Positions 7,314 to 63,891 are shown, numbered from the stretch's first letter. The stretch is 64,000 bases of DNA from Candidatus Altimarinota bacterium (GCA_024709505.1 JANJWP010000003.1:4767-68766); one strand, 5' to 3'. Notes: generated by a model not told the origin, from the letters alone. Numbers and translations are program-made.

Positions 7314-7371
7314 GGTAAAAAGCGGTTCGGGGAAATGATATCCAATTCGGGCGACAATGGAAGCGGTGAAC

Positions 7372-7408: not shown

Positions 7409-7440
7409 AGGCGGAGCGGGATTTCGTCGTCACCGAGGAA

Positions 7441-7830
7441 TCAGGAATTCCCGGTGAGAAGGTTGCCCGCCACGTTGCGGTTGAGCGTGAGACGGAAGCG
7501 GGTATGCCCCTCGCCCACGACCGTGAGCGTGAGAAGTCCGGAGTCGATGGCGTACCGAACGAAATCGCGCCAGACCGGAAACGTGCGCTCGCTCGGACGG
7601 ACCGCTTCAAGCGAATCGGGATCAGTGTCGGGAAAGTCGCGGATTTCGAATTTCGCATCATCCGAAACCAGATCGCTGACCTTGGAAGGCTTCTCCACCC
7701 CCTCGTGGGAAACCACGAGGAGCAGGTATTTGCGGTCGGAGAGAAGGGCGTTGACGGCCCCAAGGGCGACGCTGCGCAAATCGGCAAGCTGGGACTCGGT
7801 CAGGTTTTTTCGGACCAGGCTTTCGCTCAT
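7441..7830 (-). CDS. Hypothetical protein, 129 aa; apparent stop is UGA
   Basis: ATG at 7828-7830 preceded by AAAGGAA. The ORF ends at TGA 7441-7443. Under strict table 25 the next in-frame stop is TAG at about 6748, across two terminators and another gene (see findings). Confidence 0.6.
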   Translation of the reverse strand: MSESLVRKNLTESQLADLRSVALGAVNALLSDRKYLLLVVSHEGVEKPSKVSDLVSDDAKFEIRDFPDTDPDSLEAVRPSERTFPVWRDFVRYAIDSGLLTLTVVGEGHTRFRLTLNRNVAGNLLTGNS

Positions 7831-7947
7831 GGCAATTCCTTTCGGTTTTGGTTTTGGACTGCGAATTTATATGGAAAAAACATTATTGGTCAAGATGTTC
7901 CGCAAAAGGCCATTCGGAATTTGGGGCGGCACGAGTAGCATGGTGCC

Positions 7948-8619: not shown

Positions 8620-10323
8620 ATGAAACGGATTTGGAACGATATCTCGCTCCGCACGAAATTCATGCTGCTGGCCGGCATGCTCATCGTCATCATCATCGGA
8701 CAGGGGACGGTCGGCGGGTTCGCCGTGAAATCCTACTTCGAAAAAACCGAAGCCGGATACGAACAGGGTACCGTGCCAATCCGCATCATCGGTCAAATAC
8801 TTGAGCGGATGTCCGATAACCGCGCGCAAGTGTTCGGCGCCCTCCAACACAACCCGGCACGGGAAGAATCCCGATTTCATGACCATCCGGTTTCCGAGCA
8901 CGTCAGAAGCATCGAGAAAAACGTCGAGCGGATAAACGAGCTCATCGAAGAATACAAAAAGCATCCGGTTTTCCCGGAAGAAGCGGCGCTCCTGAAAGAG
9001 TTCGAAGAAAAGCGTTCGGCATACGCCATGAAGATTTTGCGCGCAAAATCGAACCTGAACGAAGAGCTCTGGATGGAAACGGCCGCACTGCTTCGCGAAA
9101 TCAACCAAAACTACGAAGCCGCCCGGCAGGCCGGGAACGCTCTCTCCAAATTTTTGGAAGGGCGGGCGGAAAAAAGCGTCATCGCCAACCGCGAAGACTA
9201 CGAATTGCGAGTGCTCATGACGATCGTCGGAGTTCTCGGATCGGCCGTTTTCGGAACGGGCATCAGTCTCATCACGATCGTTTCGTTCCGTTCGCGAATC
9301 GGAAAACTCACCGAGATGGTCGCGAACGTCGAGCGATCCAAAGACCTCACCCTTCCGGTGTCGATCAATGGACGGGACGAAATCGCGGGAATCGCGAAGA
9401 GCTTCGAGAGCCTCGTTGCCGCGGTTCGGGAAAGCGTTGGCGAAATAAAGCGCGAAGCGTCGGAAGTAGCCCAAGGGACCGAAGGAATCCGGTCGGCGAC
9501 GAAGGAAATTCAATCTTCCAACGGCTCGCTCTCCGATTCCGTCGCCCAAAGCGCCGCCACGAGCGAAGAACTCTCGGTCAGTATCGCCGAGGTCGGGGCG
9601 GGCGCCCACGCCGTGAGCGAACTCGTCGGCAACGTCACGAGAAAACTCGTCTCGGAAAGTGCTGCCGAAGTACGAAAAGCCGTCGAGGAACTGGGAAACG
9701 CTTCGCATGCGGTACACCGTTCTGACGCTGAAGTGGAAGAACTGTTCCGTGCTTCCGAAAAAATCGGCCGACTGGCCGATTCGATTGGAAATATCGCGCA
9801 ACAAACCAATCTTCTCGCTCTGAATGCCGCCATCGAAGCGGCGCGGGCGGGCGAGGCCGGGCGGGGATTCTCCGTCGTTGCCGACGAAGTCCGGAAGCTT
9901 TCGGAACACACTTCGCAAGCGACGAAAGAATCCATTGCCGCCATTGCCGACATCCAACACCGGATGGGCGCGCTCCGGGAAGTCATGAAAGAGAGCGTCT
10001 CGCAAATAGAATCGGGCGAGACAATCGGAAAAACGGCGGTAAAAACGCTGGCGGAAGCAGAAAAAAGCAGCGGACAGGCGGCTGAACAAGTCGCCGAGAT
10101 GTCGGCGGCAGTAAACGAGCAGGTTCGGGCCGTCGAAGGACTCTCAAATCAGCTCGAACGCATTGCGGCGGCTTCGGAAGAAGCCAGTTCACAGGCGCGC
10201 CTTTCCTCCGAACTGACCGATCGAGTCCATCATGCCACCGCTTCCTTGCGGAATGCGGTAGACAGATTCAAATCGTGACGGACAAAAGCCGACCTCCGGG
10301 ATTTTCCCGGAGGTTTTTTTTAA
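8620..10323 (+). CDS. Methyl-accepting chemotaxis protein
   Basis: SD AAGGAG 7 nt before the ATG. N-terminal TM, a second TM plus HAMP-like region, and the highly conserved signalling hairpin [36 protein letters not shown]. The standard ORF ends at TGA 10276-10278. Table 25 adds 14 codons to TAA 10321-10323, running through the terminator. Confidence 0.9.
10293..10321. terminator. Intrinsic terminator shared by MCP (+) and proB (-)
   Basis: CCTCCGGG-ATTTTC-CCGGAGG followed by an 8-T run and then an A run. Confidence 0.75.
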
Positions 10324-15621: not shown

Positions 15622-15650
15622 GCGCGTTTGGGGAGTTCGTGCAAAATAAA

Positions 15651-15678
15651 AAAACGGCTCCCGCTTGGAAGCCGTTTT
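15651..15678. terminator. Intrinsic terminator between the M23 gene (+) and pyrE (-)
   Basis: AAAACGGCTCC-CGCTT-GGAAGCCGTTTT (one bulge) flanked by A and T runs. Confidence 0.75.
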
Positions 15679-15702
15679 AAAACGTCGTCTCGAAAAAGAA
15701 AT

Positions 15703-16491
15703 TCAGGAACCCTTGGAATAATCGGCGCCGTAGAGGCGGCGGTAATCCTTCATCGCCTCGATGATTTCGCCGACCGGATCTTCAAGGGACGGGCCCTCGG
15801 GAACCGATTCGAGCCGCGCGAGCAAATCGTCGAAGGTTGCGATGGCATGGACCGGAATCCCGTATTTGGCGCGAGCCTCCTGAACGGCTGAAAAATCGCC
15901 TTCCTTGCCTTTTTCCATGCGGTCGAAGGCAACCACGACCCCGTGGGGAATCCCTCCGGACGCGCGGATGATTTCGATGGCTTCGCCCACGGCCGTTCCG
16001 GCCGTGATGACGTCGTCAACGATGAGCACCCGCTTTTCCGCAAGCTTCGCCCCAACGATGTTTCCGCCTTCGCCGTGGTCCTTGGCTTCCTTTCGGTTGA
16101 AGGCCCACGGCTTGTCGCGACCGAACTTGCGAAACAGCCCGGCGGCGGCATGGGTCGCCAAGGGAATTCCCTTGTAGGCGGGGCCGAAAATGACGTCGAA
16201 GTCGCCGTGGGTTTCGAAATAGCCGCCGAAGCCGAAAGTCGAGTGCGCGGCGGCGGAACGCTCGTCGGGATAGAGGGAAGCGATTTTTTCGGCGTAGAGC
16301 AATCCAAGCTCCCCGGATTCGGAGCCGGTGCAAAAACTGCCGAAGTTGGCGAAATACGGCGAGACCCTTCCGGATTTCAGCGTGAATTCGCCGAACTTGA
16401 GGACGCCCTTGGCCAACATGAAGTCGAGCAGGCGGACGGCGACGGATTGGGGAAGCTCTTGCGGAAAATCCGCACAAACATCCATGACCAT
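15703..16491 (-). CDS. pyrE: Orotate phosphoribosyltransferase; apparent stop is UGA
   Basis: ATG at 16489-16491 preceded by AGGAAA. PRPP-binding loop VLIVDDVITAGTA. C-terminus ...YRRLYGADYSKGS is typical of the family, followed by TGA 15703-15705. Table 25 would add 34 codons through the terminator to TAA 15598-15600. Confidence 0.9.
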   Translation of the reverse strand: MVMDVCADFPQELPQSVAVRLLDFMLAKGVLKFGEFTLKSGRVSPYFANFGSFCTGSESGELGLLYAEKIASLYPDERSAAAHSTFGFGGYFETHGDFDVIFGPAYKGIPLATHAAAGLFRKFGRDKPWAFNRKEAKDHGEGGNIVGAKLAEKRVLIVDDVITAGTAVGEAIEIIRASGGIPHGVVVAFDRMEKGKEGDFSAVQEARAKYGIPVHAIATFDDLLARLESVPEGPSLEDPVGEIIEAMKDYRRLYGADYSKGS

Positions 16492-16511
16492 GACTGTTTC
16501 CTTTCTCCGCT

Positions 16512-17366
16512 TCAAGCGGAACGGGCGTTGCGATAATTGGAACGGTGGAGATTGATTTCGTCGCGGGTCTTCCCCGCTGCGGCCGCCACGTCCTTGGCGT
16601 AGATGATGCCCCGCGAAGAGTTGATCATCATGCCGAAGCCGTCGGAATCCTGTCCGGCCTTGACGGTCGCTTCGACGTCGCCGCCCTGGGCCCCGATTCC
16701 GGGAACTAAGATCGGCATGTCGCCGACGAGTTCGCGAACGCGGGCAAGCTCCGAAGGACGGGTCGCGCCAACCACGAGGGCCATGCGATTCCCCCCATGA
16801 CGAGCGTTGAGTTCGGCCATCCTGCAAGCGACCTGCTCATAGAGCTTGAGGCCGTTATTCAAGACGAGGTCCTGAAAGTCGCCCCCACCGGGATTGCTCG
16901 TGCGGCAAAGCACGATGACGCCCTTGTCCTCGTATTCGAGGAAAGGTTCGAGCGTATCGAGTCCCATGTAGGGATTGACGGTCACCGCGTCGGCGCCGAA
17001 TCGGACGAAGGCCTCTTCGGCGTATTTCTCGGCGGTATTGCCGATATCGCCGCGTTTGGCGTCGAGAATCACGGGCGTTTTATAGTCGCGCTGGATGCGG
17101 GAGATGAGCATCTGCAGTTCTTCTTCCTTTTCGTAGCGGGAAAAGAAGGCCGCGTTCGGTTTGAAGACCGAAGCGTGCCTGGCCGTAGCCGAAACGGCGT
17201 CGAGGCAAAAGTCGGCAATGACGTCACGAATGGCCGGATTGGCGAATTCGCTGCCGCGAGCCTTGGCAATGGAAGCGTAATCGGGATCGAGTCCGACGCA
17301 GAGAAGCGAATTTTTACGTTCCTGCGAGGCGCGGAGTTTCTCAAAAAATGAACGGGGTTTCGTCAT
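16512..17366 (-). CDS. pyrF: Orotidine 5'-phosphate decarboxylase (type 2); apparent stop is UGA
   Basis: 284 aa with LCVGLDP, ILDAKRGDIGNT and VGATRP motifs. Ends at TGA 16512-16514, 20 nt before the out-of-frame pyrE ATG. Confidence 0.9.
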   Translation of the reverse strand: MTKPRSFFEKLRASQERKNSLLCVGLDPDYASIAKARGSEFANPAIRDVIADFCLDAVSATARHASVFKPNAAFFSRYEKEEELQMLISRIQRDYKTPVILDAKRGDIGNTAEKYAEEAFVRFGADAVTVNPYMGLDTLEPFLEYEDKGVIVLCRTSNPGGGDFQDLVLNNGLKLYEQVACRMAELNARHGGNRMALVVGATRPSELARVRELVGDMPILVPGIGAQGGDVEATVKAGQDSDGFGMMINSSRGIIYAKDVAAAAGKTRDEINLHRSNYRNARSA

Positions 17367-24000: not shown

Positions 24001-25083
24001 TTATTCCCCCTTCCCTGCCGCCTGTTCCAAAAGTTGCGTCTGATCGGCAATCGAAAGCGCTTCGACGATATGGCCAAGTTTCCCCATCATCACGACGGGA
24101 ATGTTCGAAAAATTTTCTCCGATCCGGTGGTCGGTAATGCGGTCCTGCGGAAAATTGTAGGTGCGGATTTTTTCAGCCCGTTCGCCCGTTCCAACCTGCG
24201 AAAGACGATTGGCGCCGAGTTCGTTCGCCCGTTTCTCTTCTTCGATGGCATAGAGGCGGGCCCGAAGGATTTCGAGGGCTTTGGTCTTATTTTGGAGTTG
24301 GGAACGTTCGTCCTGGCATTCCACCGCGAGTCCCGAAGGTTTGTGGAAAACCCGAATGGCCGAAGATGTCTTGTTGACCTTTTGACCTCCGGCTCAGGAA
24401 GCTCGACAGGCCGTGATTTCAATGTCGTCGTCACGGATTTCCACGTCGAGGGCTTCAGCCTCGGGGAGCACGGCCACGGTCACGGTGGAAGTATGGACGC
24501 GCCCCTTCGCCTCGGTTTCGGGAATGCGCTGGACGCGATGGGTTCCGCCTTCGTATTTGAACTTCGAATACGCTCCGGAACCGGAAATTTTCATGATGAT
24601 TTCCTTCAGCCCCCCGACCTCGCTCGCGTTTTCGTCGAGAATTTCGAGGCCAAAACCTTGTTCGCGGGCGAAGTTCATGTAGGCGTTCGCGAGTTCGCGG
24701 GCGAAAAGCGCGGCTTCGTCGCCTCCCGCTCCTGCCCGGACTTCCAAAATGATGTTTTTGTCATCGTTCGGATCCTTGGGAAGGAGTTCGATCTTCAATT
24801 CTTCTTCGAGAACCGGAATCTTTTCTTCGGATTCGGAGAGCTGCTCCTTGGCCATCATGATCATCTCAGGATCTTTTTCGGTTGCGAGAATTTGTTTCGC
24901 CTCCTCTAAGTTGGCCCAAACGGTTCTGTATTGTCCATAGAGTTCAACCGTGCGTTCGAGGGATTTTTTTCGCCGCATGACCTTCTTGAGGCGTCCGGGA
25001 TCGCTAAAAATGGAGGCGTCAGTGGAAAGTTCGTTTTCGATCGAGCGGTACTCGTCAACGATGGCGTCAAGATTGAATTTCAT
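24001..25083 (-). CDS. prfA: Peptide chain release factor 1
   Basis: ATG at 25083. RF1-type tripeptide region [16 protein letters not shown] (PxT, not SPF). GGQ loop RAS[UGA=G][12 protein letters not shown], with the UGA at 24394-24396. TAA stop. Confidence 0.93.
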
Positions 25084-25902: not shown

Positions 25903-28900
25903 ATGACCCCAAAGCGACCCAGCGAAAATGCGGAAGCCCAGCAAATCGGCGAAGGACAATCCTGATTGCTCGACGCCGCGGTCCGCGACTTCGTAGAAAC
26001 CCGATTCAACGATGACGGGCAAAGTTTTTACGAGCGCTTCAACGCGAACATCCCGCTCTTGGGCGATTTCGTCGCTTTTCTCAAAACCAAGCCCGGATAC
26101 AAGCACATCCTCCTTGCCATCGGCGAAATCGGAAAGAAGGGCGGCGACGCGCTGTACCAAGTGCTCAAAACCCCCAAAGGCTCGGGGAATTTAAAGGGGA
26201 ATTTCCTGGTTCTTCGCGAAAGCGTCGAAAAAAACGATAACTCGCTTTTCGCCTCGGAAATCCGCCGGGTCGCTTTCAGTTTGGAAAATCTTCGAAAGGA
26301 AGCTTCGGAACGCTTCGCTTTGGAATACGACTTCTCTTCCTTGCCGAACGCACGGGAAAAATCCGGGGATTTGGAGCGACGGATGGGGCGAATGAGCGTC
26401 CGGGAACTCTCAGAACTCGTGGCCTCTCCCGTGGCACGGTTCGAACTTCTCGAAGGAGTGCTGCGAAAAAATCCGGAATTCTACCGAAAAGATTGGCAAG
26501 CCTACCTCGACGCCCTCCAGTCCGAGACCGGATTGAGCGAAAAAGACCGGGCAAGACTTACGAAACACCTCGAAAACGCCGACTGGATTTCCAACGTCGA
26601 AAACGCGAAAAACGCCTTTAGAACGGGGAACGTGAGCCAAGACGAAATCCGGACGATCATCGGACTCATCGCCTCCCCCAAGGCAAAGCGCGCGCTTTTG
26701 CGAGCGGTCATGCCGAAAATTTCACTCGGCGAGCTCGTGCGGATGAAGATCATCGGAAAGTCCGAAGCCGAAAGCCACGTCGAAAACTTCGTGCGGGATT
26801 CTTGGGAAAAACGAAGCTCCGAGGTATCCGCTTCTTTGATTCGGGATGCCGAAATGCGGGCGGCGGATTCCAAAGAAGAAAACGCCGCGGCCGCGCGCGA
26901 CCGGATATTGAAGGACATCGTCCGATCCCTCGATCCGAACGCCGTGTTCGTCCAAACGGGCGAACTCTCCGACGAAGCGGTGGACGTCGCGCTCAAAAAA
27001 TCGAACGTCGCCGCGCTTTTGGAAGAAAAGGTCGCTGCGGGCATGGAAGAACTAAAAAACGCCCTCGACCCCGAAAAATCGCTTGAAGCCGACCGCAACG
27101 GTTCTTTCGCCGTCGCCTTCGCGAACAAGATCGTTTCGGAATTCTCGGGACACGAAAACGAAACGAAAAACATCGCCGGAGTCGGGATTTTCATGGACAG
27201 CGCGAAAAATCCGTCCGGTGGAGAAGCCATTCTCGAGGGAACTTTGCAAGAAACGCCAGGGAGTCAAGCGGCGAAAATCCGGGTAAAAATCCTCGAATGG
27301 AAAGAACGCTCAAACCCGGGAGAGCGAAAGATGCGCGTAGCGTTTCTCGACGAATACGGAGCCATGGCACGGGAAGACGAGCTCTCCTACGAAGAATTTT
27401 ACCGCTTGGTTCACCGTCTGGAAAACCGGGCGTTCTACGACGGCGAATCGATGGGGCGGAAAATTCGCATCGAAGACGCCGGAACCAAACGGAAGGTCGC
27501 CGAAATGGAAACCGCCGCAAGCGATGAGGAGCGCGAGGAAATCGCGGCCCAAATATCCGCTCCGGAAATCCGAGATTTGAGCGAACTCATCGAAATGTTC
27601 GACGATCTCGACCCGAACGGAACGTCCCATGGATTCAAAGCCGGAATGTCGGTCATTTTTTCCAAACCGGAATCCAAGGAATACAACGTGGTAACCGTCG
27701 AGTCCGTGGACGAAGGAGCGAAAACCCTCACCGTCGTCGATACCCAAAGCGAAAACAACCGACGGTCAACCGTATCGTTTTCGCAATTCTATTCGTTCGC
27801 GAGACTCTTTGGAGCGGCTCGTTCCGCGGGCATCAACTCGGCAAGAAAATTCCTCGATGCCATGAACGCCTCCCTCATGAAGGGGTATTTCGAAGACCTT
27901 TCGGTCGAAGACGGCGAAGGCGGAATGAAAAATTTCGTCCCGAAAAACAAACGCGGGCAAAACGGCTACGAGGGCGTAAGGGTCCTCTATAAGCCGGACG
28001 GAAAAGCCATTCAAATCGGGGCGATGGAAGAAGGGCGCGTCGAAATCCGCATGCTCGAATCGTTCGATCCCGGAAACCAGAAGGAGGGCGTAAAGCCGAA
28101 GGGCGAATTTTCGGGCCCGTTCCAGTGGTACGGATACGAAACCCTCTACATGCTGACAAGGAAACACGGCCTCGGCCCCTACGAAGGCGTCGCCGAAGAA
28201 ATCCAGATCAAAGAGCCCGAATTCGAATCGAAGGGCACGTTGAAGAAATTTCTCAACCGTCCGAGTTTCCACGACTTCCTCCACGGACTTTGAGAGATTC
28301 CGAAATTCATAAAAAAGAAGCTCGAACATTCAAGCCACCACCACGCCGCGCACGTCACCCTCGCGATTGCCGAAAAAATTCCGGGATTCCCTTCGGATTG
28401 GCTCGTAGACCTGCAAATGGAAATCCACAACGAGGACAAGGCGACGCTCGGAAAGGAGGTTGACCGACTCAATTCGTTTTCTTCGCCCAAGCGGCACGAA
28501 CAGGCATTGCGTTACTTGAAAAACGCCGGGTCGCACGACTACGAAATCATCGCCGCCGCGCTTTCGCTTTTGGAAAAACACGGGAACCTCTATCCGGGGG
28601 TTTTGGCGAAATACGAAAAAGATTGGCTCTTTTACGCCCGCATGCCGGGAACGATGGAAGAAAAGAAAAAATTCCTTCAATCCAAACGCTTTGAGCCGGA
28701 CGGAAAGGAACGCGAAGTGAAGGAACCGGAAATCATCATGCTCTGGCTCCAAGAGCTTTCGAAGCGTTCGCACCACCCCATCAGCCCGTACTACTGGCTC
28801 GAAGTGAAGAAGCGCTGGTACGCCGGAGCGACCGGAGAATACGAAATGGGCGGAAAGGAGGCGAAAACTAAGGAGTCCCTCCTCGAGCGGGCCAATTATG

Positions 28901-30627
28901 CGATAGGCAAATTCAAAGGAAAGGAATACGCCCACGGGGTCGGTGCCATGGAAGAAATCTGGAACAAACCCAACGGACTCTGAATGGGCGTCGCGGAGCG
29001 CATGCGGGTTCCGTTCGTTTTGGCGATGAGTAACGTCCGAAAACACCTCCATTCGGATCTCGCGCAGAAATTCACGGAAATGTTCGATGACGGGCATACC
29101 TATCCGCCGCTTTTGTTCATTCAGCAAGCCGATCGGCAAGACATTTTCCGAAAGGTGATCAAACACCTCTCGAATCAGTGAGGAGCCGAAATGTCGGCGG
29201 CTTTCTCGAAAATCGAGAAGCTCATGTTCGAGCCTTCGGTATCGCTCAAAGAAAAATCCAACGACGAGCTCCTCATTCTCGAATTGGACGCGTTTTGGAA
29301 GAAATACGGCGACAAGCTCTCGAAAAAACTTCTCGTTTCGGTCGAGGATCCGCAAATCCTTCTCGAAAAAGAGAATTATCCGGAATTCGCCGAATACCTC
29401 GAAATCGTCGGGGGCGGCTGCGGAAATACGAAGTTCGACGGGACCGAAATCAACTGTGGAACCTACGAAGTCGGTTCGGCCAACTGGTCGCTTGCAGCAC
29501 CGGGAACCTTCGTGAGGCAGTTCAAGGTCCAAGCTGGCCATGGCGCGCTCAATTCCGAATTGGAACAATACCTTTTCGGCACGTTCAAACAGAGTCTCAA
29601 CAAGATTCGCGAAACCAAGTACGACGATGATGCGAACCGTGACCGCGAAATTAAGAAACGGCTTTTTCGCGAGTACCACCTGAACTTCGAACAGTACATC
29701 CATACGCGCCTCGGCTCCGATAAATTGGCCGAAGACCCCAACCGTCGGGGTTCGCCGAAATTCGCGAACGAGCCGTACATGCGCCAACTTACGGACGAAT
29801 TCGGATTTACCGCGAAAATTCCGGACGAAGCGGTGTTCGAAGGAACCAAATACGAAGCTTGGCTCGAATCGGACTTCAACCGTTTCCTATCGATAAAATC
29901 CGCGAAAAAATTCGGGAACGAAGTCGCTACGAACGTTGACGGAATCATCGACCGAAACCTTTTCGACGATGACGACGATGAGGAGGGTGGCGACGGTGAG
30001 GAGGGTGGATGAACCGATAACCGTCCGGAATCCGTTTCCGAACTGGAAGCGGCGGAGACAAACCGCGTGGCGGAAAATCCGGAAGCGCGGGAGACATCAG
30101 GAAGTTCGAACGGAGGCGGAAGTTCGAATCATCTTCCGGAAGAGGAAGAAAGCATTCAAGCCGAAAACGAAGGACCGAGGGAAACCTTTAGAAACCACTA
30201 CTCGCCCATCGTTGACCGAATTGTCGCTCGATTTGGAAAATTGCCCTCCGAGTATGCCAAAGGACGGTCGAAAGACATGAAAAAGGCATTGAAAAAGGCT
30301 GGGGTTTCCATTCCGACCGACATTGCCAACACGGAATGGGCGCTCTCAAAAATCGTCGAGCGGTTCTTGGAGCTCGAGCTTTCGGATTTTTTCGGAGCGG
30401 AAGTCGGAGAAGGATTCGTAGGAAGCGAATATCTCCGCTACGATGACGTCCATGCCAGAATTGGTTCGGAGATTCTTGCGGCGTTTCGCCGCGGGGAAAC
30501 CGTGAATTTCGATCACGTATGAAACGACGCTTCGAGAATCTACCTCCACCTCCTTTTGCGTGACGGAATGACCTGGAAACCCGAAGATCTTCGAAACATA
30601 GGAAAGATTTTCTTGGATGCCGCCTAG
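25903..30627 (+). CDS. Giant hypothetical protein, 1574 aa, 6 sense UGA
   Basis: Track ORFs 25966..28293, 28417..28983, 28984..29181, 29191..30012 and 30067..30522 all share one frame, with no TAA/TAG between them. TGA at 25963, 28291, 28981, 29179, 30010 and 30520. First true stop is TAG 30625-30627. Start ATG 25903 was chosen because earlier ATGs lie inside the promoter. No family recognised; there is an acidic DDDDDEEGGDGEEGG tract. Confidence 0.7.
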
Positions 30628-37526: not shown

Positions 37527-37855
37527 TCGGAAAAGTTCCGAGGGGAAAGCCGAAAAAAATCCGCCTGCGCAACGGTTCAATCGACCATCTCAATTCCGTC
37601 AGCCCGGAGGCGGCGGATTTTTTCGTGGATGCCGAGATTGTACCCGGAGATCTTTCCGCTCGATGAAACCACCTTGTAACAAGGGAAAATGTCTTGTTCC
37701 GGATTGCTCGAAAGCATCGAGGCCACGCCGCGCGGATAACTGCCGAGAACTCGAGCAAGTTCGCCGTAGGATACGACTTTTCCTTGGGGAATTTCCAAGA
37801 GAAGTTGAAAAAGCCGACGCTTGCGGGTATCTTGGTGGAAAACCGTTTTGCTCAT
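37523..37855 (-). CDS. MGMT/Ogt-family DNA-binding domain protein (PCYKV variant of PCHRV)
   Basis: ATG at 37855. LLLEIPQGKVVSYGELARVLG...FPCYKVVSSSGKISGY. The standard ORF ends at TGA 37577. Table 25 adds 17 codons to TAA 37523-37525, which overlaps the convergent GGDEF TAG by the same 4-nt pattern seen elsewhere. Confidence 0.7.
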
Positions 37856-50246: not shown

Positions 50247-51890
50247 TTAGTACATCCCCATTCCGCCACCCATTCCTCCGTGGTCGTGAGCGGGAGCGGA
50301 TTCTTCCTTCTTCGGAGCTTCCACGATGAGGGCTTCGGTCGTAAGGAACATTCCGGCGATGGAAATGGCGTTTTCGAGCGCGGAACGCGAAACCTTCTTC
50401 GGATCGATGATTCCGGCTTTGACCATGTCGGTAAATTCGTCTTTTGCGGCGTCGTACCCGTAGTCGGCATCGCCGCTTCGAAGGATGTCGGCAACGATGA
50501 CGGCGCCTTCTTTTCCGGCGTTTTCAGCAATCTGCCGAACCGGATACGAGAGCGCCCGAGCGACGATGTGGGCGCCGATTTCCTGGTCGCGATTGTCGAA
50601 TTTGGCGCCTTCGAGGGCTTTTGCGGCTTTGAGAAGCGCGACTCCGCCTCCGGCGACGACGCCTTCGTCAACGGCCGCCTTGGTGGCATTGAGGGCGTCT
50701 TCGATGCGGAGCTTCTTTTCTTTCATCTCGACCTCGCTTGCGGCGCCGACTTTGACGACGGCGATACCACCGGCAAGTTTGGCGAGACGCTCAAGGAGCT
50801 TTTCCTTATCGTAGTCGGACTTGGTCGCTTCGACCTGGGCCTTGATTTCCCGAACGCGAGCATCGATGCGGCTCTTGTCGCCAGCACCGCCCGAAACGAT
50901 GGTGTCGGATTTGGTCGCGACGACGCTCTTGGCCCGACCGAGATGTTCGATGGAGGCGTTTTCGAGTTTGTAGCCGAGTTCTTCGGTGATGACGGTCGCA
51001 CCGGTAAGCACCGCGATGTCCTTGAGCATTTCTTTCTTGCGGTCGCCGAAACCCGGAGCCTTGACCGCGAGAACGTTCAGCACGCCCTTGAGCTTGTTCA
51101 AAATAATGCCCGCGAGCGCGTCGCCGTCAACGTCGTCGGCGATAATGACGAGCTCGCGCTTGCCGGTGGAGGCCAGCTGTTCAAGCACCGGAAGGATGTC
51201 CTTCAGCGAGGAAATCTTTTTGTCGGTGACGAGGATGTGCGCGTCGGAAACGCGGCCTTCCATTTTTTCGCCGTCGGTCACCATGTAGGGCGAAACGTAG
51301 CCCGAATCGAACTTCATGCCTTCGGTAACTTCGACTTCGAGGCCGAAGGTCTGACCTTCTTCAACGGTGATGACGCCGTCTTTTCCGACCTTGTCCATCG
51401 CGTCGGAGATGATGGCGCCGACTTCGGCGTCCTGGGCCGAAATGGTGGCTACCTGGGCGATTTCGTCTTTGGAGTTAATCGCTTTGGCGTTTTTCGCGAG
51501 TTCGGCGGCGACGATTTCGCCAGCCTTCTTCATGCCGTTTTTCAGTTCGATGGCATTGATGCCCGAGCGGATTTCACGGAGCCCTTCTTTCGCCATGGCG
51601 TACGTGAGGAGCGTGGCGGTGGTGGTTCCGTCTCCGGCGGCGTCGTTGGTGCGCGAAGCGGCTTCCTTCACGAGCTCGGCGCCCATGTTCTCGATCTTGT
51701 CTTCGAGTTCGATTTCTTTGGCGATGGTTACGCCGTCGTTGGTGACTTGCGGAGCGCCGTACCCCCGAGAGAATACGACGTTTCGGCCCTTGGGACCGAT
51801 GGTGGCAGTAACGGTTTTGGCGACCTTTTCCATTCCCGAGAACATCTGGAAACGGGCTTCGTCGCCGAAATGGATGCGTTTAGCGGACAT
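50247..51890 (-). CDS. groL: Chaperonin GroEL
   Basis: 547 aa. AKRIHFGDEAR..., GDGTTTATLL, and a C-terminal GGMGGGMGMY tail. TAA stop. No internal UGA. Confidence 0.97.
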   Translation of the reverse strand: MSAKRIHFGDEARFQMFSGMEKVAKTVTATIGPKGRNVVFSRGYGAPQVTNDGVTIAKEIELEDKIENMGAELVKEAASRTNDAAGDGTTTATLLTYAMAKEGLREIRSGINAIELKNGMKKAGEIVAAELAKNAKAINSKDEIAQVATISAQDAEVGAIISDAMDKVGKDGVITVEEGQTFGLEVEVTEGMKFDSGYVSPYMVTDGEKMEGRVSDAHILVTDKKISSLKDILPVLEQLASTGKRELVIIADDVDGDALAGIILNKLKGVLNVLAVKAPGFGDRKKEMLKDIAVLTGATVITEELGYKLENASIEHLGRAKSVVATKSDTIVSGGAGDKSRIDARVREIKAQVEATKSDYDKEKLLERLAKLAGGIAVVKVGAASEVEMKEKKLRIEDALNATKAAVDEGVVAGGGVALLKAAKALEGAKFDNRDQEIGAHIVARALSYPVRQIAENAGKEGAVIVADILRSGDADYGYDAAKDEFTDMVKAGIIDPKKVSRSALENAISIAGMFLTTEALIVEAPKKEESAPAHDHGGMGGGMGMY

Positions 51891-53323: not shown

Positions 53324-55093
53324 ATGTCTGAAATCCGCGAAAACCATTACCGTCTCCTTATGTCCAAAGAAGCACCGAAAAGCCTTGGAGCCCGACTCGC
53401 CGTAATTGGAGCGATCACCTTCGCGTCCTTCGCTTACGCCTTCCCGTGGCAATCCCACGGAATCGACATGCCGTTCGAAACCGGCGATTACAAGCTCGGA
53501 CTCGACCTTCACGGCGGCGTCGAACTCGACTACAAGATCGATCTGGAAGAGGCAAAGAAAAAGGGGGGCGAATACAACGAAAAGAACATCGTCGAAGGAT
53601 TGAAATCCATCGTTGAAAAACGCGTCAATTCGCTTGGAACTGCCGAACCAACCATTCAAACGGCCTCTTACGGCAACGAATCCCATATCATCGTCCAAAT
53701 TCCAACCCAGGATTTTGGGGGAGATTTGAGCGAAGAAGAACGGAAGGCTAAAAACGCCGAATACATTTCGAAGGCGAAGGACACCATCGGAAAAGTCGTC
53801 CGGCTCGAATTCAAGGAAATGAAGTCGTCGATTACCGACGCCGACCGCACCGAGCGCAAAGCCTTGGCCGAGGCGGCGGCAAAAGAGGCTCTGGAAGCCA
53901 AAGATTTCTCAGTCGTCGGAAAGAAATACCGCGACAACTACGAAAACGTCGAATATCAAACCGGTTCCGGAACGCTCGAACAACTTCCCCGGGAATTCGT
54001 TTTCGAAGGAATCGGGGCGGTATCCGGCGCTCAAACCACCGAAGCTTTCGCGTCGCAGAAATCGGGAGGACTCACCATGGACGAAGGCGGAAAGATCGTT
54101 CCGCTTGAAGGAAACAAGGGGTTTTCGGTCGTTCGGATACGGAACGCCGTCGGCACCGGAAGCGGAAAAACCTACGAATACGAAGGGATTTTCGTAGACG
54201 AAAGGCCGTCGGTATGGACGCTTGCCAAAACGCTCGATGGACGGGCTCTTGACGAGCGGTATCTCATCCGGGCATCCGTCAGCTTCAATCAGGGATTCCA
54301 ACCCCAAGTCGAACTCCTCTTCAACGACGAAGGCGCGAAGATTTTCGGCGAACTTACCAAGCGGCTCGTCGGACAACAGCTCGCCATTTTCGTCGGAGGA
54401 CAGCTTCTTACCGATCCGGTCGTACAGACTACCATTTCCGATGGAAAGGCCGTTATCACCGGAAACTACACCCCCGAAAGCGCCAAACAGCTCGCCACCG
54501 ACATCAATACGGGCATCGTTCCGGCTCCCATCTACCTTACGAGCGAACGGGCCATCGACGCTAAAATGGGGAGCGATTCGCTCTCAGTCATCGTAAATGC
54601 CGGACTCATCGGACTCATCGCCATCGTGGCCTTCCTCGTTTGGGCATACCGCGTTTCCGGCCTTCTTGCGGGTATTGCGCTCGTCATTTACGCAATCCTT
54701 CTCCTTGCCATCGTCAAGTTCTTCGGAATCGTGCTGACCCTCGCTTCCATCGCGGGAATCATTCTCTCCATCGGCCTCGCCATCGACGCGAACGTCCTCA
54801 TCTTCGAACGCACCAAAGAAGCGCTTCGGGAAGGTTCCGACCTTAAGCGCGCGGTCGTTTCGGGCTTTGAAAAATCATGGAGCGCGATTTGGGATTCGCA
54901 TATCACCTCCCTTACTTCGGCGGTCATTCTCTATATTTTCGGCATTTCGCTCATCAAGGGATTCGGACTCATGCTCGGAATCGGCATCGTGCTTTCGCTC
55001 TTTACTGCCATGTGGGTTTCGCGCATTCTCATCCTCCACGTGAGCGAATCGTTCGAGGGACGCGAATCGAAATTCGTAGGACTGAAGAAATAG
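53324..55093 (+). CDS. secD: Protein-export membrane protein SecD
   Basis: ATG at 53324 (alternative 53360) inside track ORF 52952..55093. N-terminal TM, a large periplasmic domain (LGLDLHGGVEL...) and 5 C-terminal TM segments with SIGLAIDANVLIFER. TAG stop. No UGA. Confidence 0.9.
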   Translation: MSEIRENHYRLLMSKEAPKSLGARLAVIGAITFASFAYAFPWQSHGIDMPFETGDYKLGLDLHGGVELDYKIDLEEAKKKGGEYNEKNIVEGLKSIVEKRVNSLGTAEPTIQTASYGNESHIIVQIPTQDFGGDLSEEERKAKNAEYISKAKDTIGKVVRLEFKEMKSSITDADRTERKALAEAAAKEALEAKDFSVVGKKYRDNYENVEYQTGSGTLEQLPREFVFEGIGAVSGAQTTEAFASQKSGGLTMDEGGKIVPLEGNKGFSVVRIRNAVGTGSGKTYEYEGIFVDERPSVWTLAKTLDGRALDERYLIRASVSFNQGFQPQVELLFNDEGAKIFGELTKRLVGQQLAIFVGGQLLTDPVVQTTISDGKAVITGNYTPESAKQLATDINTGIVPAPIYLTSERAIDAKMGSDSLSVIVNAGLIGLIAIVAFLVWAYRVSGLLAGIALVIYAILLLAIVKFFGIVLTLASIAGIILSIGLAIDANVLIFERTKEALREGSDLKRAVVSGFEKSWSAIWDSHITSLTSAVILYIFGISLIKGFGLMLGIGIVLSLFTAMWVSRILILHVSESFEGRESKFVGLKK

Positions 55094-60891: not shown

Positions 60892-62277
60892 ATGCAAAAT
60901 TCGAACGGAACCCCTTCCCATCTCCACGTAGTGGGCATCTGAGGCATCGGCGTTTCAGCCGTAGCCCGCTATTACCGACAATCCGGATGGACCGTTTCCG
61001 GTTCCGATGGATCGGAATCAGCCATCACCCGAGCCCTCCGCGCCGAAGGAATTCCCGTATCCATCGGACACGACGAATCAAACGTTCCCCAAAACCTCTC
61101 GCTTCTCGTCTATTCGGAAGCCGTCGTCACGAAGCCCGATCTTCCCAAAGAAGAGCAGGTGCTCTCCAATCCGGAAATCCGGAAATCGCACGAAATGGGT
61201 GTCCGACGGCTTTCCTATCCCGAAGCGCTCGCCGAACTCTTTAACGGCAAATGCGGGATCGCCGTATCCGGAAGCCATGGAAAATCGACTACGACGGCCA
61301 TGATCGGAACGGCGTTGGTCGAGTCGGGATTCGGGGGTTCGACGGTCGTTGGAACGCAAGTGCCCCAATTCGGCGGAAAAAACGGGCACTTCGAACCGAA
61401 AAGCCCCGTCTTCGTCATCGAAGCATGCGAATACCGGAGATCGTTTTTACGCTACGAACCCGAAATCGCCGTCATTACCAATATCGATCTCGACCATCTC
61501 GACTATTACCGCGACTTAGAAGATTACCTTCAGGCGTTCGAAGCCTTTCTTTCCAGAACCCGGAGAGCGGCGATATTTTCGGCCGATTGCGAAAATTCCC
61601 GGAAGGTCGCGTCATCGGATGGCGCGTCGCACTTGGAAAAATATTTCGTCGATAAGGACGGCTTCGTCGGACCGGACGGAACGCGCACGCCGTTGCCGCA
61701 AATGAAACTCGCCGTTCCGGGCGAACACTTGGCGCAAGACGCCCGGCTAGCCTACGTCGCGCTCCTGCTTGCGGGGGTTCCCGAGGCCGACATCGCTCCG
61801 GCGCTCGAAAAATACCGCGGCTCGTGGCGGAGGAGCGAAGTCATCGGAACGACGGAAAACGGCAATCTGCTCGTCTCCGACTACGGGCACCATCCTTCCG
61901 AAATTCGTCCGACGCTTGAAGCGTTCAGGGACAGATATCCGGACAAGACGCTCTTCGTCACGTTCCAGCCGCACCAACACTCGCGAACCCGCGAACTCCT
62001 CACGGAGTTCGCGTCGGCATTCGATGCCGCGGACGAGCTTCTCGTTCCCGACATCTATTTTTCGCGCGATAAAAAGGAAGACGTCGAATGGATGACCGTA
62101 AAACGGCTTCTCGACACCCTGAAAACCCGCTATCCGAACGTTCGGGGAGGACGGGGACTCGATGCCGCGGCCGAAGAAATCGAAGCCTTCGACCGGAAAA
62201 ATCCGGGAAAAGCGGTCTTCGTGCTCCTTGGGGCGGGAAATATCGATGACCTGCGGTACCGACTCGTAAAAACCTAG
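60892..62277 (+). CDS. murC: UDP-N-acetylmuramate--L-alanine ligase
   Basis: ATG 60892 gives MQNSNGTPSHLHVVGI[UGA=G]GIGVSAVARYYRQSGWTVSGSD, in frame with track ORF 61159..62277 (GSHGKSTTTAM, DLDHLDYY). UGA at 60940-60942. TAG stop. Confidence 0.92.
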
Positions 62278-62295: not shown

Positions 62296-62871
62296 ATGCT
62301 CTCAAAAATCGGGGAAATCCTCAAAAGAGTGGAGGAGCTAAAAATCCAGCTCCAATCAGAATACGTAGCGCTCATGGAGCGCTACGACTACGCCATTGAA
62401 AACCGGAAGATCGTTTTTTCCGAAAAAGCCAAAAAAATCCAAAGGGGCGCTCGCGAAGGAGCGTTCCATTATCTGCTTTCCTCGGAAATCCGGCACGTCC
62501 TCTCGATTCCGTTCATCTACGCGATGGTCGTTCCGGCAATCGTGCTCGACGTTTTTCTGACCATGTTCCAGTATACGGCCTTTCCCCTTTATGGGATCGA
62601 ACGGGTCAAAAGAAGCGATCATATCCTTTTTGACCGAAAATACCTCGGATACCTCAACTGGATACAAAAACTCAATTGCCTCTATTGTTCTTACGTCAAC
62701 GGGCTTTTTTCTTACGCGACCGAAATCGGAGGGCGGACCGAAAAATACTGGTGTCCCATCAAATACGCGCGACGACTCGAACAGACCCATCGCCACTATC
62801 CGGAATTCGCCGATTTTTGAGATGCCGAAGGATTCACCGAACTATACGCCTCCAAAGGAAAAACGAAATAA
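62296..62871 (+). CDS. Hypothetical membrane protein, 191 aa
   Basis: Track ORF 62296..62820 continues through TGA 62818 (…YPEFADF[G]DAEGF…) for 16 codons to TAA 62869-62871. Two TM segments and a Cys-rich LNCLYCSY...WCPIKYA region. Confidence 0.6.
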
Positions 62872-62950
62872 TCCGATTTGTTAAAATCGATCTTTGGGAT
62901 ATCTTCGCGCGGACGGCATGTGCCGTCGCTACGCCATGGGAGGCACTCGA

Positions 62951-63427
62951 ATGAAAACGAGCGTGTTTTTCCACCGGGCCGGCCCGCTTGAAGCCGGACT
63001 CCACCATGCGTCCATCGAAAGGCTGTTCGCGGATGTCCGCCCGCTTCCGAACGGAAACGGCCACGCGTCCATCCTGGCGGTTGACGCATTCGGCCAACTC
63101 GTCGGGGCTTCGGAGATGTCATTTTCGAAAGGGAGTGCGCACGTGCGTTTCGCCGCGTGTCCGCTCTACCAAGATTCCGACGTCGAAGAATCGCTTTTGG
63201 CCCGTTCGATGCTCGCGGCCCGAAATCTGGGTGCCGCGAAAATCGCCTTCGATCTCCAAAAGGAAGACGAGTCCCGGGCGCTCTTGGCCCGGAGTAACGG
63301 AATGAGCATCAATCGCTCAGGGGAAACGTGGGTGGCGGAAGCCTACCTGCCCTATGCCGACCCGTGCAGTTTTGCCATCGAATGCGCGCTGTCATGGTTC
63401 GTCCCCGTTCCGGCAGAATGTCGGTGA
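62951..63427 (+). CDS. Putative GNAT-family acetyltransferase; apparent stop is UGA
   Basis: GGGAGG 7 nt before ATG 62951. 158 aa with a GNAT-like core (ILAVDAFGQLVGAS...EESLLARSMLAARNLGAAKI). Ends at TGA 63425-63427, followed by a terminator. Confidence 0.6.
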   Translation: MKTSVFFHRAGPLEAGLHHASIERLFADVRPLPNGNGHASILAVDAFGQLVGASEMSFSKGSAHVRFAACPLYQDSDVEESLLARSMLAARNLGAAKIAFDLQKEDESRALLARSNGMSINRSGETWVAEAYLPYADPCSFAIECALSWFVPVPAECR

Positions 63428-63447
63428 CGGAACGAAGCGTCAAAATC

Positions 63448-63473
63448 CGCCCCCTTCATGAGGGCGTTTTTTT
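63448..63473 (+). terminator. Intrinsic terminator after the GNAT-like gene
   Basis: CGCCC(C)-loop-GAGGGCG hairpin followed by TTTTTTT, starting about 20 nt after the TGA. Confidence 0.65.
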
Positions 63474-63497
63474 ATTCCCGAAGCGCTAAACGCATTA

Positions 63498-63525
63498 TTG
63501 ACAATGTAGGAAAAGTTGATACTAT
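63498..63525 (+). promoter_or_regulatory. Consensus promoter for the lipoprotein gene
   Basis: TTGACA (63498-63503), 16-nt spacer, TACTAT (63520-63525). AAGGAGG follows at 63551-63557. Confidence 0.55.
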
Positions 63526-63562
63526 CAATCCGTCTCAACCGCTTTTAGAAAAGGAGGAAGCC

Positions 63563-63802
63563 ATGGGACGCCTATCCCTAACCGCGTTGGTATTAGCCGT
63601 GGTACTCGGCGGTTGCGCGAACGTGGAACCGAAAAATTCGTCGGGATACGACGGCGAACGCACGGGACCCCTTACCAACTATTCGACCTACCCGGCACCG
63701 ACCAAACCGCCCTATCGCGACACCTACGTCGTCCAAACCAAGGGCAAGGGCGCCAAAGTCGTCGTGGACGAACGTTACGAGCCGAGGCCCGCGAAGCGGT
63801 AA
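63563..63802 (+). CDS. Small lipoprotein, 79 aa
   Basis: AAGGAGG 5 nt before ATG 63563. MGRLSLTALVLAVVLGG|C has a lipobox (L-G-G-C). TAA stop. Confidence 0.75.
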   Translation: MGRLSLTALVLAVVLGGCANVEPKNSSGYDGERTGPLTNYSTYPAPTKPPYRDTYVVQTKGKGAKVVVDERYEPRPAKR

Positions 63803-63832: not shown

Positions 63833-63859
63833 AAAACCCCCTCATCCGAGGGGGTTTTT
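63833..63859. terminator. Intrinsic terminator
   Basis: AAAACCCCCTC-ATCC-GAGGGGGTTTT plus extra T residues. Confidence 0.8.
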
Positions 63860-63891
63860 TCGAATATCCGTTCGGACGGACGTCCTCCCTG

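What the first reader, a model, noticed from the sequence alone, without database searches (positions are those of the whole stretch)
63425..63565. UGA followed by terminator, consensus promoter, SD and a new start, all in the same frame as the upstream gene
After ...VPVPAECR-TGA (63425-63427) come four elements. There is a GC hairpin plus a 7-T run (63448-63473), then TTGACA-N16-TACTAT (63498-63525), then AAGGAGG, then ATG 63563 of a lipobox protein. No TAA/TAG occurs in the upstream frame across this spacer, and the lipoprotein gene is in the same frame. Table-25 gene callers would therefore fuse an acetyltransferase-like protein to a lipoprotein precursor through about 45 codons of regulatory DNA.
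Basis: seen in the sequence. Interest (0 to 1): 0.7.

Follow-up and report, generated by a model that had tools for sequence, protein, structure and literature searches.

The report
Gene ending in reassigned UGA codon
In a bacterium that reads UGA as glycine, one small gene (and at least four others nearby) still has UGA exactly where its stop codon belongs, so either these proteins get junk tails or UGA can still stop translation there, and annotation software will wrongly fuse neighbouring genes.

Summary
TGA 63425-63427 is followed by a modest hairpin plus T7, a near-consensus extended -10 promoter, AAGGAGG and the ATG of a lipobox protein. The frame stays open and is the same as the downstream gene.

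The genome does read UGA as Gly. Examples are the MurC motif GI-UGA-GIG, many TGA/GGN swaps with relatives, and an in-frame UGA in RF1.

The two ORFs are separate genes:
- A relative (L005, dS 0.38) has TAA at the homologous codon.
- The spacer there carries three 1-nt indels and shows no codon periodicity.
- No fused homologue exists among 5.8 billion proteins.

The upstream ORF is a real gene (dN/dS 0.13). It is an orphan, and "acetyltransferase-like" is unsupported.

The case is not isolated. Five of 49 genes in the window end at TGA at their natural C-terminus: this ORF, an MCP, PyrE, PyrF and an MGMT-like protein. None of the five has an internal TGA. Native genes with orthologues use only TAA/TAG. 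The PyrF and PyrE TGA ends persist across six lineages each.

My preferred reading is that these are un-ameliorated stops of foreign or accessory genes and are now read through. The rival is that UGA keeps a stop function here, an intermediate or dual code. Whether prfB is present could not be checked.

The parts
62951..63424 (+). ORF-B coding region (158 aa, MKTSV...PAECR). Orphan protein of unknown family with no internal TGA.
   Evidence: GGGAGG lies 7 nt upstream of the ATG. Against L005 the substitutions by codon position are 11/8/33 and dN/dS is 0.13. No Pfam or NCBIfam hit. Only its own cluster in 5.8 billion proteins.
63425..63427 (+). TGA at the position of ORF-B's stop codon
   Evidence: The homologous codon is TAA in L005. 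It is TGA in the independent assemblies L001-L004. Elsewhere in this genome TGA is Gly.
63448..63473 (+). Intrinsic-terminator-like hairpin (5-6 pairs) plus T7, preceded by an A-tract
   Evidence: Conserved in L005, where a 1-nt deletion shortens the T-run.
63498..63525 (+). Sigma-70-type promoter TTGACA-N16-(TGa)TACTAT for the lipoprotein gene
   Evidence: 10 of 12 matches, TG present. The -35 is identical in L005.
63551..63557 (+). Shine-Dalgarno AAGGAGG, 5 nt before the ATG
   Evidence: Conserved in L005.
63563..63802 (+). Lipoprotein precursor gene (79 aa, lipobox LGGC with Cys18, stop TAA)
   Evidence: The L005 orthologue keeps the lipobox and ends in TAG one codon later.
63837..63860 (+). 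Terminator after the lipoprotein gene
10276..10321 (+). Same class: the MCP gene (8620-10278) ends ...DRFKS-TGA, followed by a strong terminator at 10293-10321. The first TAA lies at the end of the T-run.
   Evidence: The fold is -21.3 kcal/mol, z = -4.06. The 552-aa orthologues in L006-L008 end RFRT-TAA.
15648..15705 (-). Same class: PyrE (16491-15703) ends ...YGADYSKGS-TGA (15705-15703), followed by a strong terminator at 15674-15648.
   Evidence: The E. coli PyrE alignment ends here. Fold z = -3.72. The end is TGA in W, L019, L006, L007, L021 and L020, and TAG in L016 and L017.
16505..16521 (-). Same class: the PyrF stop TGA (16514-16512) sits in the triloop of hairpin UUCCGCU-UGA-AGCGGAG, which overlaps the pyrE Shine-Dalgarno. 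The pyrE ATG follows 20 nt later in another frame.
   Evidence: TGA is present in six lineages. Read-through would add 192-437 codons.
37577..37579 (-). Same class: the MGMT-like (DNA_binding_1) gene 37855-37577 ends at TGA, 4 codons after the end of the Pfam domain.
   Evidence: profile positions 4-81 of 81 match residues 13-88.

Best explanation
ORF-B and the lipoprotein gene are two independent genes, and codon 63425-63427 is where ORF-B's stop codon belongs.

The organism is a Patescibacteria-group bacterium that decodes UGA as glycine. All described members of that code group lack RF2. The TGA here is therefore most likely a stop that no longer works. It could be the original TGA of a gene that arrived from a standard-code donor and was never changed to TAA/TAG. 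Alternatively it could be a TAA-to-TGA transition fixed in this lineage.

The inferred consequence is as follows:
1. The ribosome inserts Gly and runs on.
2. On transcripts that end at the terminator, it adds about 16 residues (GRNEASKSAPFMRAFF), reaches the 3' end and needs ribosome rescue.
3. On transcripts that read through the terminator, it continues in frame to the lipoprotein's TAA.

Neither the tail nor the fusion is a selected product.

The locus belongs to a class of at least five accessory genes in the window whose natural C-terminus is followed by TGA: ORF-B, MCP, PyrE, PyrF and an MGMT-like protein.

Shown here: the genes are separate, this is the stop position, UGA is Gly elsewhere, and the class exists. 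Inferred: read-through, its products, and the foreign origin of ORF-B itself.
For: **UGA = Gly.**
- MurC reads VVGI-TGA-GIGVS.
- Eight window TGAs align with GGN or TGA in relatives, with the protein conserved downstream. Dozens more do so within the relatives.
- ORF-A has GGA at 62647-62649 where L005 has TGA.
- prfA itself carries an in-frame TGA at the Gly before GGQ.

**Separate genes.**
- L005 has TAA at the homologous codon, and the spacer has three 1-nt indels (net +1).
- Spacer substitutions fall 8/4/3 by read-through frame, against 11/8/33 inside ORF-B, where dN/dS is 0.13.
- The -35, the SD and the hairpin are conserved.
- There is no fused homologue.

**UGA is not a normal stop here.**
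- All 44 other genes end in TAA/TAG.
- So do their orthologues in two or three other lineages.

**Foreign or accessory character of the class.**
- The five genes have 0 internal TGA in 1348 codons, against 3.2 expected.
- Outside its small clade, PyrE's nearest named homologues are Gammaproteobacteria at 50-54% identity.
- pyrFE and the MCP are absent from the syntenic site in lineage L009.
- The ORF-A/ORF-B/lipoprotein module sits in a different context in L005.

**Amelioration is visible.**
- L021 gained a TAA in PyrF, and the old TGA became AAG.
- L016 and L017 gained a TAG in PyrE, and the old TGA became TTA.
- The MCP and ORF-B have TAA in other lineages.

**Literature.**
- prfB was not found in any BD1-5 genome (PMC6851277).
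- Standard-code phages of these hosts keep TGA stops (PMC10746230).
Against: - Read-through looks costly. PyrF would gain 192-437 junk codons running out of frame across pyrE.
- The PyrE, MCP and ORF-B transcripts would probably end before any in-frame TAA/TAG.
- Even so, TGA is kept at the PyrF end in six lineages and at the PyrE end in six, down to 59% protein identity. It was lost only where a TAA/TAG had arisen just upstream.
- There is no enrichment of back-up stops. The distances to the next TAA/TAG are 8-437 codons.
- ORF-B, PyrE and PyrF are under purifying selection.
- These points fit a codon that still stops translation at least partly.
- Absence of RF2 and presence of tRNA-Gly(UCA) were not verified for this genome.
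- No outgroup is available to polarise TAA against TGA in ORF-B.
Confidence: 0.58

Rival explanations
1. UGA has two meanings in this lineage. It is glycine inside genes, but it still terminates translation, fully or leakily, at these gene ends. This could be because RF2 is retained (an intermediate stage of reassignment, as proposed for Ca. Providencia siddallii PSAC with UGA = Trp). It could also be because UGA decoding is slow enough for another release route to act. On this reading ORF-B ends normally at ...AECR.
For: - TGA is retained at the PyrF and PyrE ends across six lineages each, while the residues before it and the sequence after it change. It is lost only after a TAA/TAG arose upstream.
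- L007 has a tandem TGA-TGA after PyrE.
- Terminators sit 14-28 nt after the TGA, which matches the spacing after TAA/TAG stops.
- TGA and TAA interchange at orthologous stop positions in ORF-B and the MCP.
- There are no back-up stops.
- UGA is rare (2.9% of Gly codons) and is absent from highly expressed genes such as EF-G, GroEL and LysRS. This fits costly or ambiguous decoding.
- There is a precedent in PMC10540940.
Against: - None of 44 native genes in the window, and none of their orthologues, uses TGA as a stop. That would be unexpected if TGA were an adequate stop in a 54% GC genome.
- Essential genes depend on reading UGA as Gly. These include prfA, uvrB, murC and a 1574-aa protein with six UGAs.
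- No sequence context separates terminal from internal UGAs.
- No RF2 was seen in 64 kb or in the fetched loci.
- Described relatives lack prfB (PMC6851277).
Confidence: 0.27
2. The table-25 ORF is real. ORF-B and the lipoprotein are made as one 283-aa fusion protein through the 45-codon linker.
For: - The frame is open and shared.
- The TGA is fixed in several independent assemblies.
Against: - The relative has TAA and a frame-shifted spacer.
- The linker carries a terminator, a promoter and an SD, and it evolves without codon periodicity.
- The lipobox signal peptide would be internal to the fusion.
- There is no fused homologue.
- The frame coincidence has P of about 0.05.
Confidence: 0.03
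3. ORF-B is a gene being lost in this lineage. A recent TAA-to-TGA stop-loss inactivated it, and the gene is now decaying neutrally.
For: - A single transition separates TGA from the TAA of L005.
- ORF-B is an orphan accessory gene.
- The within-lineage variants seen are M56I and I120V.
Against: - There are no frameshifts or further defects in five assemblies.
- dN/dS of 0.13 over the whole divergence cannot date a relaxation.
- The same TGA-end pattern occurs in clearly maintained genes, PyrF and PyrE.
Confidence: 0.1
4. Artefact: a sequencing or assembly error at 63426, or ORF-B is not a gene.
For: None beyond prior possibility.
Against: - The TGA is identical in the Logan contigs L001-L004, assembled from four different sequencing runs. 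The exact ORF-B protein is also on record from an NCBI contig of 76,031 bases.
- There is strong third-position bias and dN/dS is 0.13.
Confidence: 0.01

Closest known systems
Genetic code 25 (UGA = Gly) of Absconditabacteria / BD1-5 'Gracilibacteria' (GTDB class JAEDAM01)
   Same: In-frame UGA at conserved Gly positions. TAA/TAG stops in native genes. RF1 is present. Relatives are labelled Patescibacteria.
   Different: GC is 54%, and UGA makes up only 2.9% of Gly codons. Five of 49 genes have UGA at the natural stop position. The papers I read do not mention this for code-25 chromosomes (PMC6851277, PMC8629427).
Ca. Providencia siddallii PSAC: intermediate UGA-to-Trp reassignment with retained UGA stops (PMC10540940)
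   Same: Sense UGAs occur in part of the genes, alongside a handful of genes that would gain long 3' extensions unless UGA still stops. A translation-termination factor gene itself carries an in-frame UGA (prfB there, prfA here).
   Different: The amino acid there is Trp, read by tRNA-Trp(CCA), with prfB retained. Here it is Gly, prfB status is unknown, and 45% of genes carry UGA against 20% there. The TGA-ended genes here look accessory or foreign rather than core.
Code-11-compatible phages of code-25 hosts (PMC10746230)
   Same: Genes without in-frame TGA that keep TGA as a stop while living in a UGA = Gly host.
   Different: In those phages the TGA stops are followed closely by other stop codons. 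Here the next TAA/TAG is 124 codons away for ORF-B and 305 for PyrF. These are also chromosomal genes inherited vertically across lineages.
Stop-loss / non-stop mRNAs handled by ribosome rescue (tmRNA-SmpB, ArfB)
   Same: The predicted fate of ribosomes that read UGA as Gly and reach the terminated 3' end.
   Different: This is purely inferred. No tmRNA or ArfB gene is in the window. Tagging for degradation would conflict with the purifying selection seen on these genes.
Position-dependent stop/sense codons of ciliates and Blastocrithidia
   Same: The same triplet is sense inside genes and appears at true gene ends.
   Different: Those systems are eukaryotic and depend on eRF1 and the poly(A) context. 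No bacterial equivalent is known, and nothing here demonstrates one.

Membership tests
Genetic code 25 (UGA = Gly) | In-frame UGA at positions where homologues have Gly, with the protein continuing downstream | tested here: met
Genetic code 25 (UGA = Gly) | tRNA-Gly with anticodon UCA | tested here: inconclusive
   Only tRNA-Leu(CAA) and tRNA-Ser(CGA) occur in the window, and none in 10 loci. The whole genome is needed.
Genetic code 25 (UGA = Gly) | Loss of RF2 (prfB), RF1 retained | not testable with these tools
   RF1 was found (prfA equivalog at 465 bits). No second GGQ factor is in the window or loci.
Genetic code 25 (UGA = Gly) | Genes end only in TAA/TAG | tested here: not met
   44 of 49 genes do. 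Five have TGA at the natural end.
Intermediate-stage UGA reassignment with retained UGA stops (PSAC type) | Coexistence of sense UGAs with genes that need UGA as a stop to avoid long 3' extensions | tested here: met
   The extensions would be 124 codons (ORF-B) and 305 codons (PyrF).
Intermediate-stage UGA reassignment with retained UGA stops (PSAC type) | prfB still present | not testable with these tools
   See above
   No Pfam or NCBIfam hit at E <= 10 or 0.01. The AF2 model has pLDDT 47.5, so the fold cannot be judged.
Intrinsic terminator | GC-rich stem-loop directly followed by a U-tract | tested here: met
   The element is weak. 3' ends were not mapped.
Sigma-70 promoter | -35 and -10 hexamers at 16-18 nt spacing | tested here: met
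   (10 of 12 matches plus TG). The transcription start was not mapped.
Bacterial lipoprotein precursor | Short basic n-region, hydrophobic h-region and lipobox L-[ASTG]-[GA]-C | tested here: met
   The sequence is MGRLSLTALVLAVVLGGC, conserved in L005. Lgt and Lsp were not looked for.
Selenocysteine recoding | UGA followed by a SECIS hairpin, with Sec or Cys at that position in homologues | tested here: not met
   The homologue has TAA. The hairpin carries a T-run and lies 20 nt downstream.
Code-11-compatible foreign genes with back-up stops | A TGA stop followed closely by TAA/TAG | tested here: not met
   The next TAA/TAG is 124 codons away for ORF-B. For the other four genes the distances are 14, 17, 34 and 305 codons.

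The most novel reading that the evidence does not exclude
In this high-GC UGA = Gly lineage, UGA is a dual-meaning codon. It is read as glycine inside genes but still acts as a functional, selectively maintained terminator at the ends of a subset of genes. That would be a living ambiguous-intermediate or context-dependent state of a code thought to be fully reassigned. It would be the first such case for code 25 and the second for bacteria.
Probability: 0.25. Interest if true: 0.85.

Novelty: new variant of a known kind. Interest (0 to 1): 0.6.

Why it matters
**Practical.** Table-25 gene calling will silently create chimeric or over-long proteins. Here these are ORF-B fused to the lipoprotein, PyrF with 305 extra codons, PyrE with 34 and the MCP with 14. 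Table-11 calling instead truncates native genes at their in-frame TGAs. Neither table annotates such genomes correctly.

**Conceptual.**
- If the terminal UGAs are read through, they show how foreign standard-code genes are domesticated in a recoded host. They also show how much C-terminal junk or non-stop translation such cells tolerate.
- If the terminal UGAs still terminate, the lineage is a natural test bed for the ambiguous-intermediate model of codon reassignment. The targets are clear: prfB status, and the C-termini of PyrF, PyrE and ORF-B.

Tried and rejected
- **Scans for ORF-B relatives.** The search for related loci on genome contigs and metagenome contigs found nothing. No outgroup is therefore available to polarise TAA against TGA.
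- **Structure prediction of ORF-B.** The model was too poor for a fold search.
- **Codon-score scan for more terminal TGAs**. It also flagged 712(-), 7398(-), 7443(-), 22614(+), 34733(+), 30348(-) and 54586(-).
  - By reading the translations only, 34733(+) and 22614(+) look like frames antisense to real genes. One resembles a zinc-ribbon protein and the other an Hsp20-like protein. No profile search was run on them.
  - The frames at 712, 7398 and 7443 read as junk.
  - 30348 and 54586 lie opposite called plus-strand genes and were not inspected further.
  - None of these was counted.
- **All-frame TGA comparison**. It was swamped by non-coding frames. A third-position filter helped but still let antisense frames through, so only GGN/TGA-aligned cases were used.
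- **MGMT-like hairpin.** It is not a convincing terminator, so only the Pfam domain end is used for that gene.
- **Context signal separating internal from terminal UGAs.** None is evident.
- **Ideas considered and dropped.** These were a SECIS or selenocysteine site, a prfB-like frameshift site, a sequencing error and a genuine fusion (see the rival explanations and the membership test).
- **RF2 search.** This was limited to a GGQ-motif grep of the window and the loci. It missed the GGQK of RF1 at first.

Full report
**1. What is at the locus**

The upstream ORF ends ...VPVPAECR and is followed by TGA at 63425-63427. Four elements follow:
- An A-tract, a short GC hairpin and T7 at 63448-63473.
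- TTGACA-N16-TACTAT at 63498-63525, with TG at 63517-63518.
- AAGGAGG at 63551-63557.
- The ATG at 63563 of a 79-aa protein that begins MGRLSLTALVLAVVLGGC, which has a lipobox.

The upstream frame has no TAA/TAG across the 135-nt spacer, and the downstream ATG is in that frame. With only TAA/TAG as stops, the ORF therefore runs 62885-63802.

The hairpin is modest. The 49-nt stretch folds at -10.5 kcal/mol, z = -0.32 against shuffles. An open 45-codon spacer has P of about 0.16-0.17, and sharing the frame multiplies this by 1/3. The frame coincidence alone is unremarkable.

**2. The genome reads UGA as glycine**

- MurC (60892-62277) has VVGI-TGA-GIGVS in its nucleotide-binding motif.
- Eight window TGAs align with GGN or TGA in relatives at 70-96% local protein identity, and the protein remains conserved downstream. 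The genes include UvrB, an amino-acid kinase, an M23 peptidase and an Asp/Glu racemase-like gene. Dozens more cases occur within the relatives.
- ORF-A (62296-62871) has GGA at 62647-62649 where relative L005 has TGA. Both keep a TGA 17 codons before the TAA, with synonymous changes after it.
- The release factor in the window (24001-25083, minus strand) is RF1. It matches the prfA equivalog at 465 bits against a cutoff of 400. It carries an in-frame TGA at the Gly of RAS-G-AGGQ.
- In 49 confident genes there are 44 internal TGAs. That is 2.4 per 1000 codons, or 2.9% of Gly codons.
- Cluster mates of the window's EF-G, LysRS and GroEL are named "Patescibacteria group bacterium".
- Published code-25 genomes reach 53% GC (PMC8629427).

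**3. ORF-B is a real gene but not a recognisable acetyltransferase**

- Relative L005 is a Logan contig with 85.5% nucleotide identity over 1.7 kb.
- Against L005, ORF-B shows substitutions of 11/8/33 by codon position. There are 32 synonymous and 12 non-synonymous codon differences. dS is 0.38 and dN/dS is 0.13.
- ORF-B has no Pfam or NCBIfam match even at permissive thresholds.
- It has no homologue outside its own 90% cluster among 5.8 billion proteins.
- The AlphaFold model is unusable, with pLDDT 47.5.

**4. The two ORFs are separate genes**

- In L005 the codon homologous to the window's TGA is TAA (CGG-TAA-T-CGG against CGG-TGA-CGG).
- The spacer differs by three single-base indels, net +1, so the lipoprotein gene is out of frame there.
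- Spacer substitutions fall 8/4/3 by position in the read-through frame.
- The spacer is more conserved than synonymous sites (15 substitutions in 135 nt, about 0.11, against dS 0.38). The -35 and the SD are identical and the hairpin is preserved.
- The TGA is not an error. It is present in four independent assemblies, L001-L004.
- A search with the fused sequence found no fused protein.

**5. The locus is one of a class**

Crossing a terminator scan with the table-25 ORFs showed strong terminators lying inside ORFs just after an in-frame TGA. With homology-based gene ends, five genes have TGA at the natural C-terminus:
- **ORF-B.**
- **An MCP (8620-10278).** It ends ...DRFKS-TGA. A hairpin with z = -4.06 starts 14 nt later, and the first TAA lies at the end of the T-run. 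The 552-aa orthologues in L006-L008 end RFRT-TAA.
- **PyrE (16491-15703).** It ends ...YGADYSKGS-TGA. The alignment with E. coli PyrE ends here. A terminator with z = -3.72 follows.
- **PyrF (17366-16512).** It ends ...NARSA-TGA. The TGA sits in the triloop of a hairpin that covers the pyrE SD. The pyrE ATG lies 20 nt later in another frame.
- **An MGMT-like protein (37855-37577).** Its Pfam domain is complete 4 codons before the TGA.

The five genes contain no internal TGA in 1348 codons, against 3.2 expected. The other 44 genes end in TAG (24) or TAA (20). For 31 of them with orthologues, the relatives also use TAA/TAG.

**6. Evolution of the terminal TGAs**

*PyrF.*
- It ends in TGA in six lineages: W, L019, L016, L017, L006 and L007.
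- The spacer to pyrE is 20 or 21 nt, so the frame relation varies. Read-through would add 192-437 codons.
- In four of the five sequence variants the base before the TGA pairs with the base after it (U:A in two, C:G in two). L016 breaks the pair.
- In L021 a TAA lies five codons upstream, and the old TGA has become AAG.

*PyrE.*
- It ends in TGA in W, L019, L006, L021 and L020 (59% identity), and in a tandem TGA-TGA in L007.
- It is always followed by a terminator. The next TAA/TAG lies 8-166 codons away.
- In L016 and L017 a 24-nt duplication created a TAG, and the old TGA is now TTA.

*Overall.* TGA was lost only where a legitimate stop had appeared. The 3' region as a whole is rather conserved, and the lineages are not independent, so I do not treat this as proof of selection on the TGA.

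*Origin.* Outside its small Patescibacteria clade, PyrE's nearest named homologues are Gammaproteobacteria at 50-54% identity. pyrFE and the MCP are missing from the syntenic site in lineage L009. The ORF-A/ORF-B/lipoprotein module has different neighbours in L005. The class therefore looks accessory or foreign.

**7. Mechanism**

Two readings survive.

(a) *Pure code 25.* The terminal TGAs are non-functional stops. They are either inherited from standard-code donors or created by TAA-to-TGA transitions, and they are read as Gly.
- For ORF-B this gives a 16-residue tail up to the terminated 3' end, followed by ribosome rescue. On read-through transcripts it gives the in-frame fusion.
- In favour: native genes never use TGA stops, essential genes rely on UGA = Gly, amelioration events are visible, and prfB is absent from all described BD1-5 genomes (PMC6851277).

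(b) *UGA still stops translation at these ends.*
- In favour: read-through looks costly for conserved genes, the TGA persists, there are no back-up stops, and the terminator spacing is normal.
- There is a bacterial precedent. Ca. Providencia siddallii PSAC carries sense UGAs, retains prfB with an in-frame UGA, and has at least nine genes that still need a UGA stop (PMC10540940).

I put (a) at about 0.58 and (b) at about 0.27. The window holds RF1 but no RF2 and no tRNA-Gly(UCA), and the rest of the genome could not be read.

**8. Comparison and novelty**

- Standard-code phages of code-25 hosts are reported to keep TGA stops that are backed by nearby stops (PMC10746230). Here the genes are chromosomal, vertically inherited and mostly lack back-ups.
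- In the papers I read and in four full-text searches, I found no report of natural-end UGAs in code-25 bacterial chromosomes. My literature check was limited.
- I class this as a new variant of a known kind.

Noticed in passing
window 24001-25083 (-), TGA at 24396-24394: The RF1 gene (prfA equivalog) has an in-frame UGA at the Gly just before the GGQ motif (RAS-UGA-AGGQK), so making RF1 depends on UGA = Gly decoding. Its codon-recognition tripeptide reads PET and its catalytic motif reads GGQK. From memory the usual forms are PxT with A or V, and GGQH.
   Followed up: partly
window 16505-16521 (-); L006, L007, L016, L017, L019: The pyrF-pyrE junction forms a hairpin, UUCCGCU-UGA-AGCGGAG, with the UGA as the triloop and the 3' arm overlapping the pyrE Shine-Dalgarno. 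U:A changes to C:G across lineages. It looks like a translational-coupling device.
   Followed up: partly
window 15703-17366 (-): PyrE is of gammaproteobacterial type. The best named hits are Thiotrichales at 50-54% identity. It carries an insertion of about 45 residues relative to them. pyrFE is absent from the same site in lineage L009/L012. This suggests horizontal acquisition of pyrimidine-synthesis genes by a Patescibacteria lineage.
   Followed up: partly
window 62647-62649 versus L005 1292-1294: There is a GGA (Gly) to TGA difference between close relatives inside ORF-A. This is a clean example of ongoing Gly/UGA codon turnover.
   Followed up: yes
window 4688-6826, 11223-12806, 50247-51890, 53324-55093: EF-G, LysRS, GroEL and SecD have no UGA at all. 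For EF-G, LysRS and GroEL the same holds in most relatives, since cluster members are mostly full length under table-11 calls. SecD is different: it is split by an in-frame TGA in relative L013. This suggests UGA is a disfavoured, perhaps slowly decoded, codon in highly expressed genes.
   Followed up: partly
window 21638-21636 (-): One in-frame TGA aligns with AAA (Lys), not Gly, in two relatives (...LDLEF-UGA-KTDKEAE against ...LDLEFKKTDKEAE). In the same gene a TGA in L006 aligns with Pro codons.
   Followed up: no
window 25903-30627 (+): A 1574-aa protein with six in-frame UGAs. No Pfam hit was found for the 775-aa stretch tested, and its function is unknown.
   Followed up: no
window 8620-10278 (+): A full-length methyl-accepting chemotaxis protein (4HB_MCP, HAMP and MCPsignal domains) in a Patescibacteria genome. 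It is present in lineages W and L006 and absent from the same site in L009.
   Followed up: no
L005 1-9081: In the relative, the ORF-A/ORF-B/lipoprotein module is flanked by a GNAT acetyltransferase gene upstream. A DpnI-like gene and a YgjP/SprT-like gene lie downstream. In the window the upstream neighbour is murC. The 1.7-kb module therefore moves between contexts.
   Followed up: partly
window 7314-7940: The stretch between the 134-aa gene and the 196-aa gene has long open frames on both strands but no convincing gene. Two TGAs flagged there (7398, 7443, minus strand) lie in junk-like translations.
   Followed up: no
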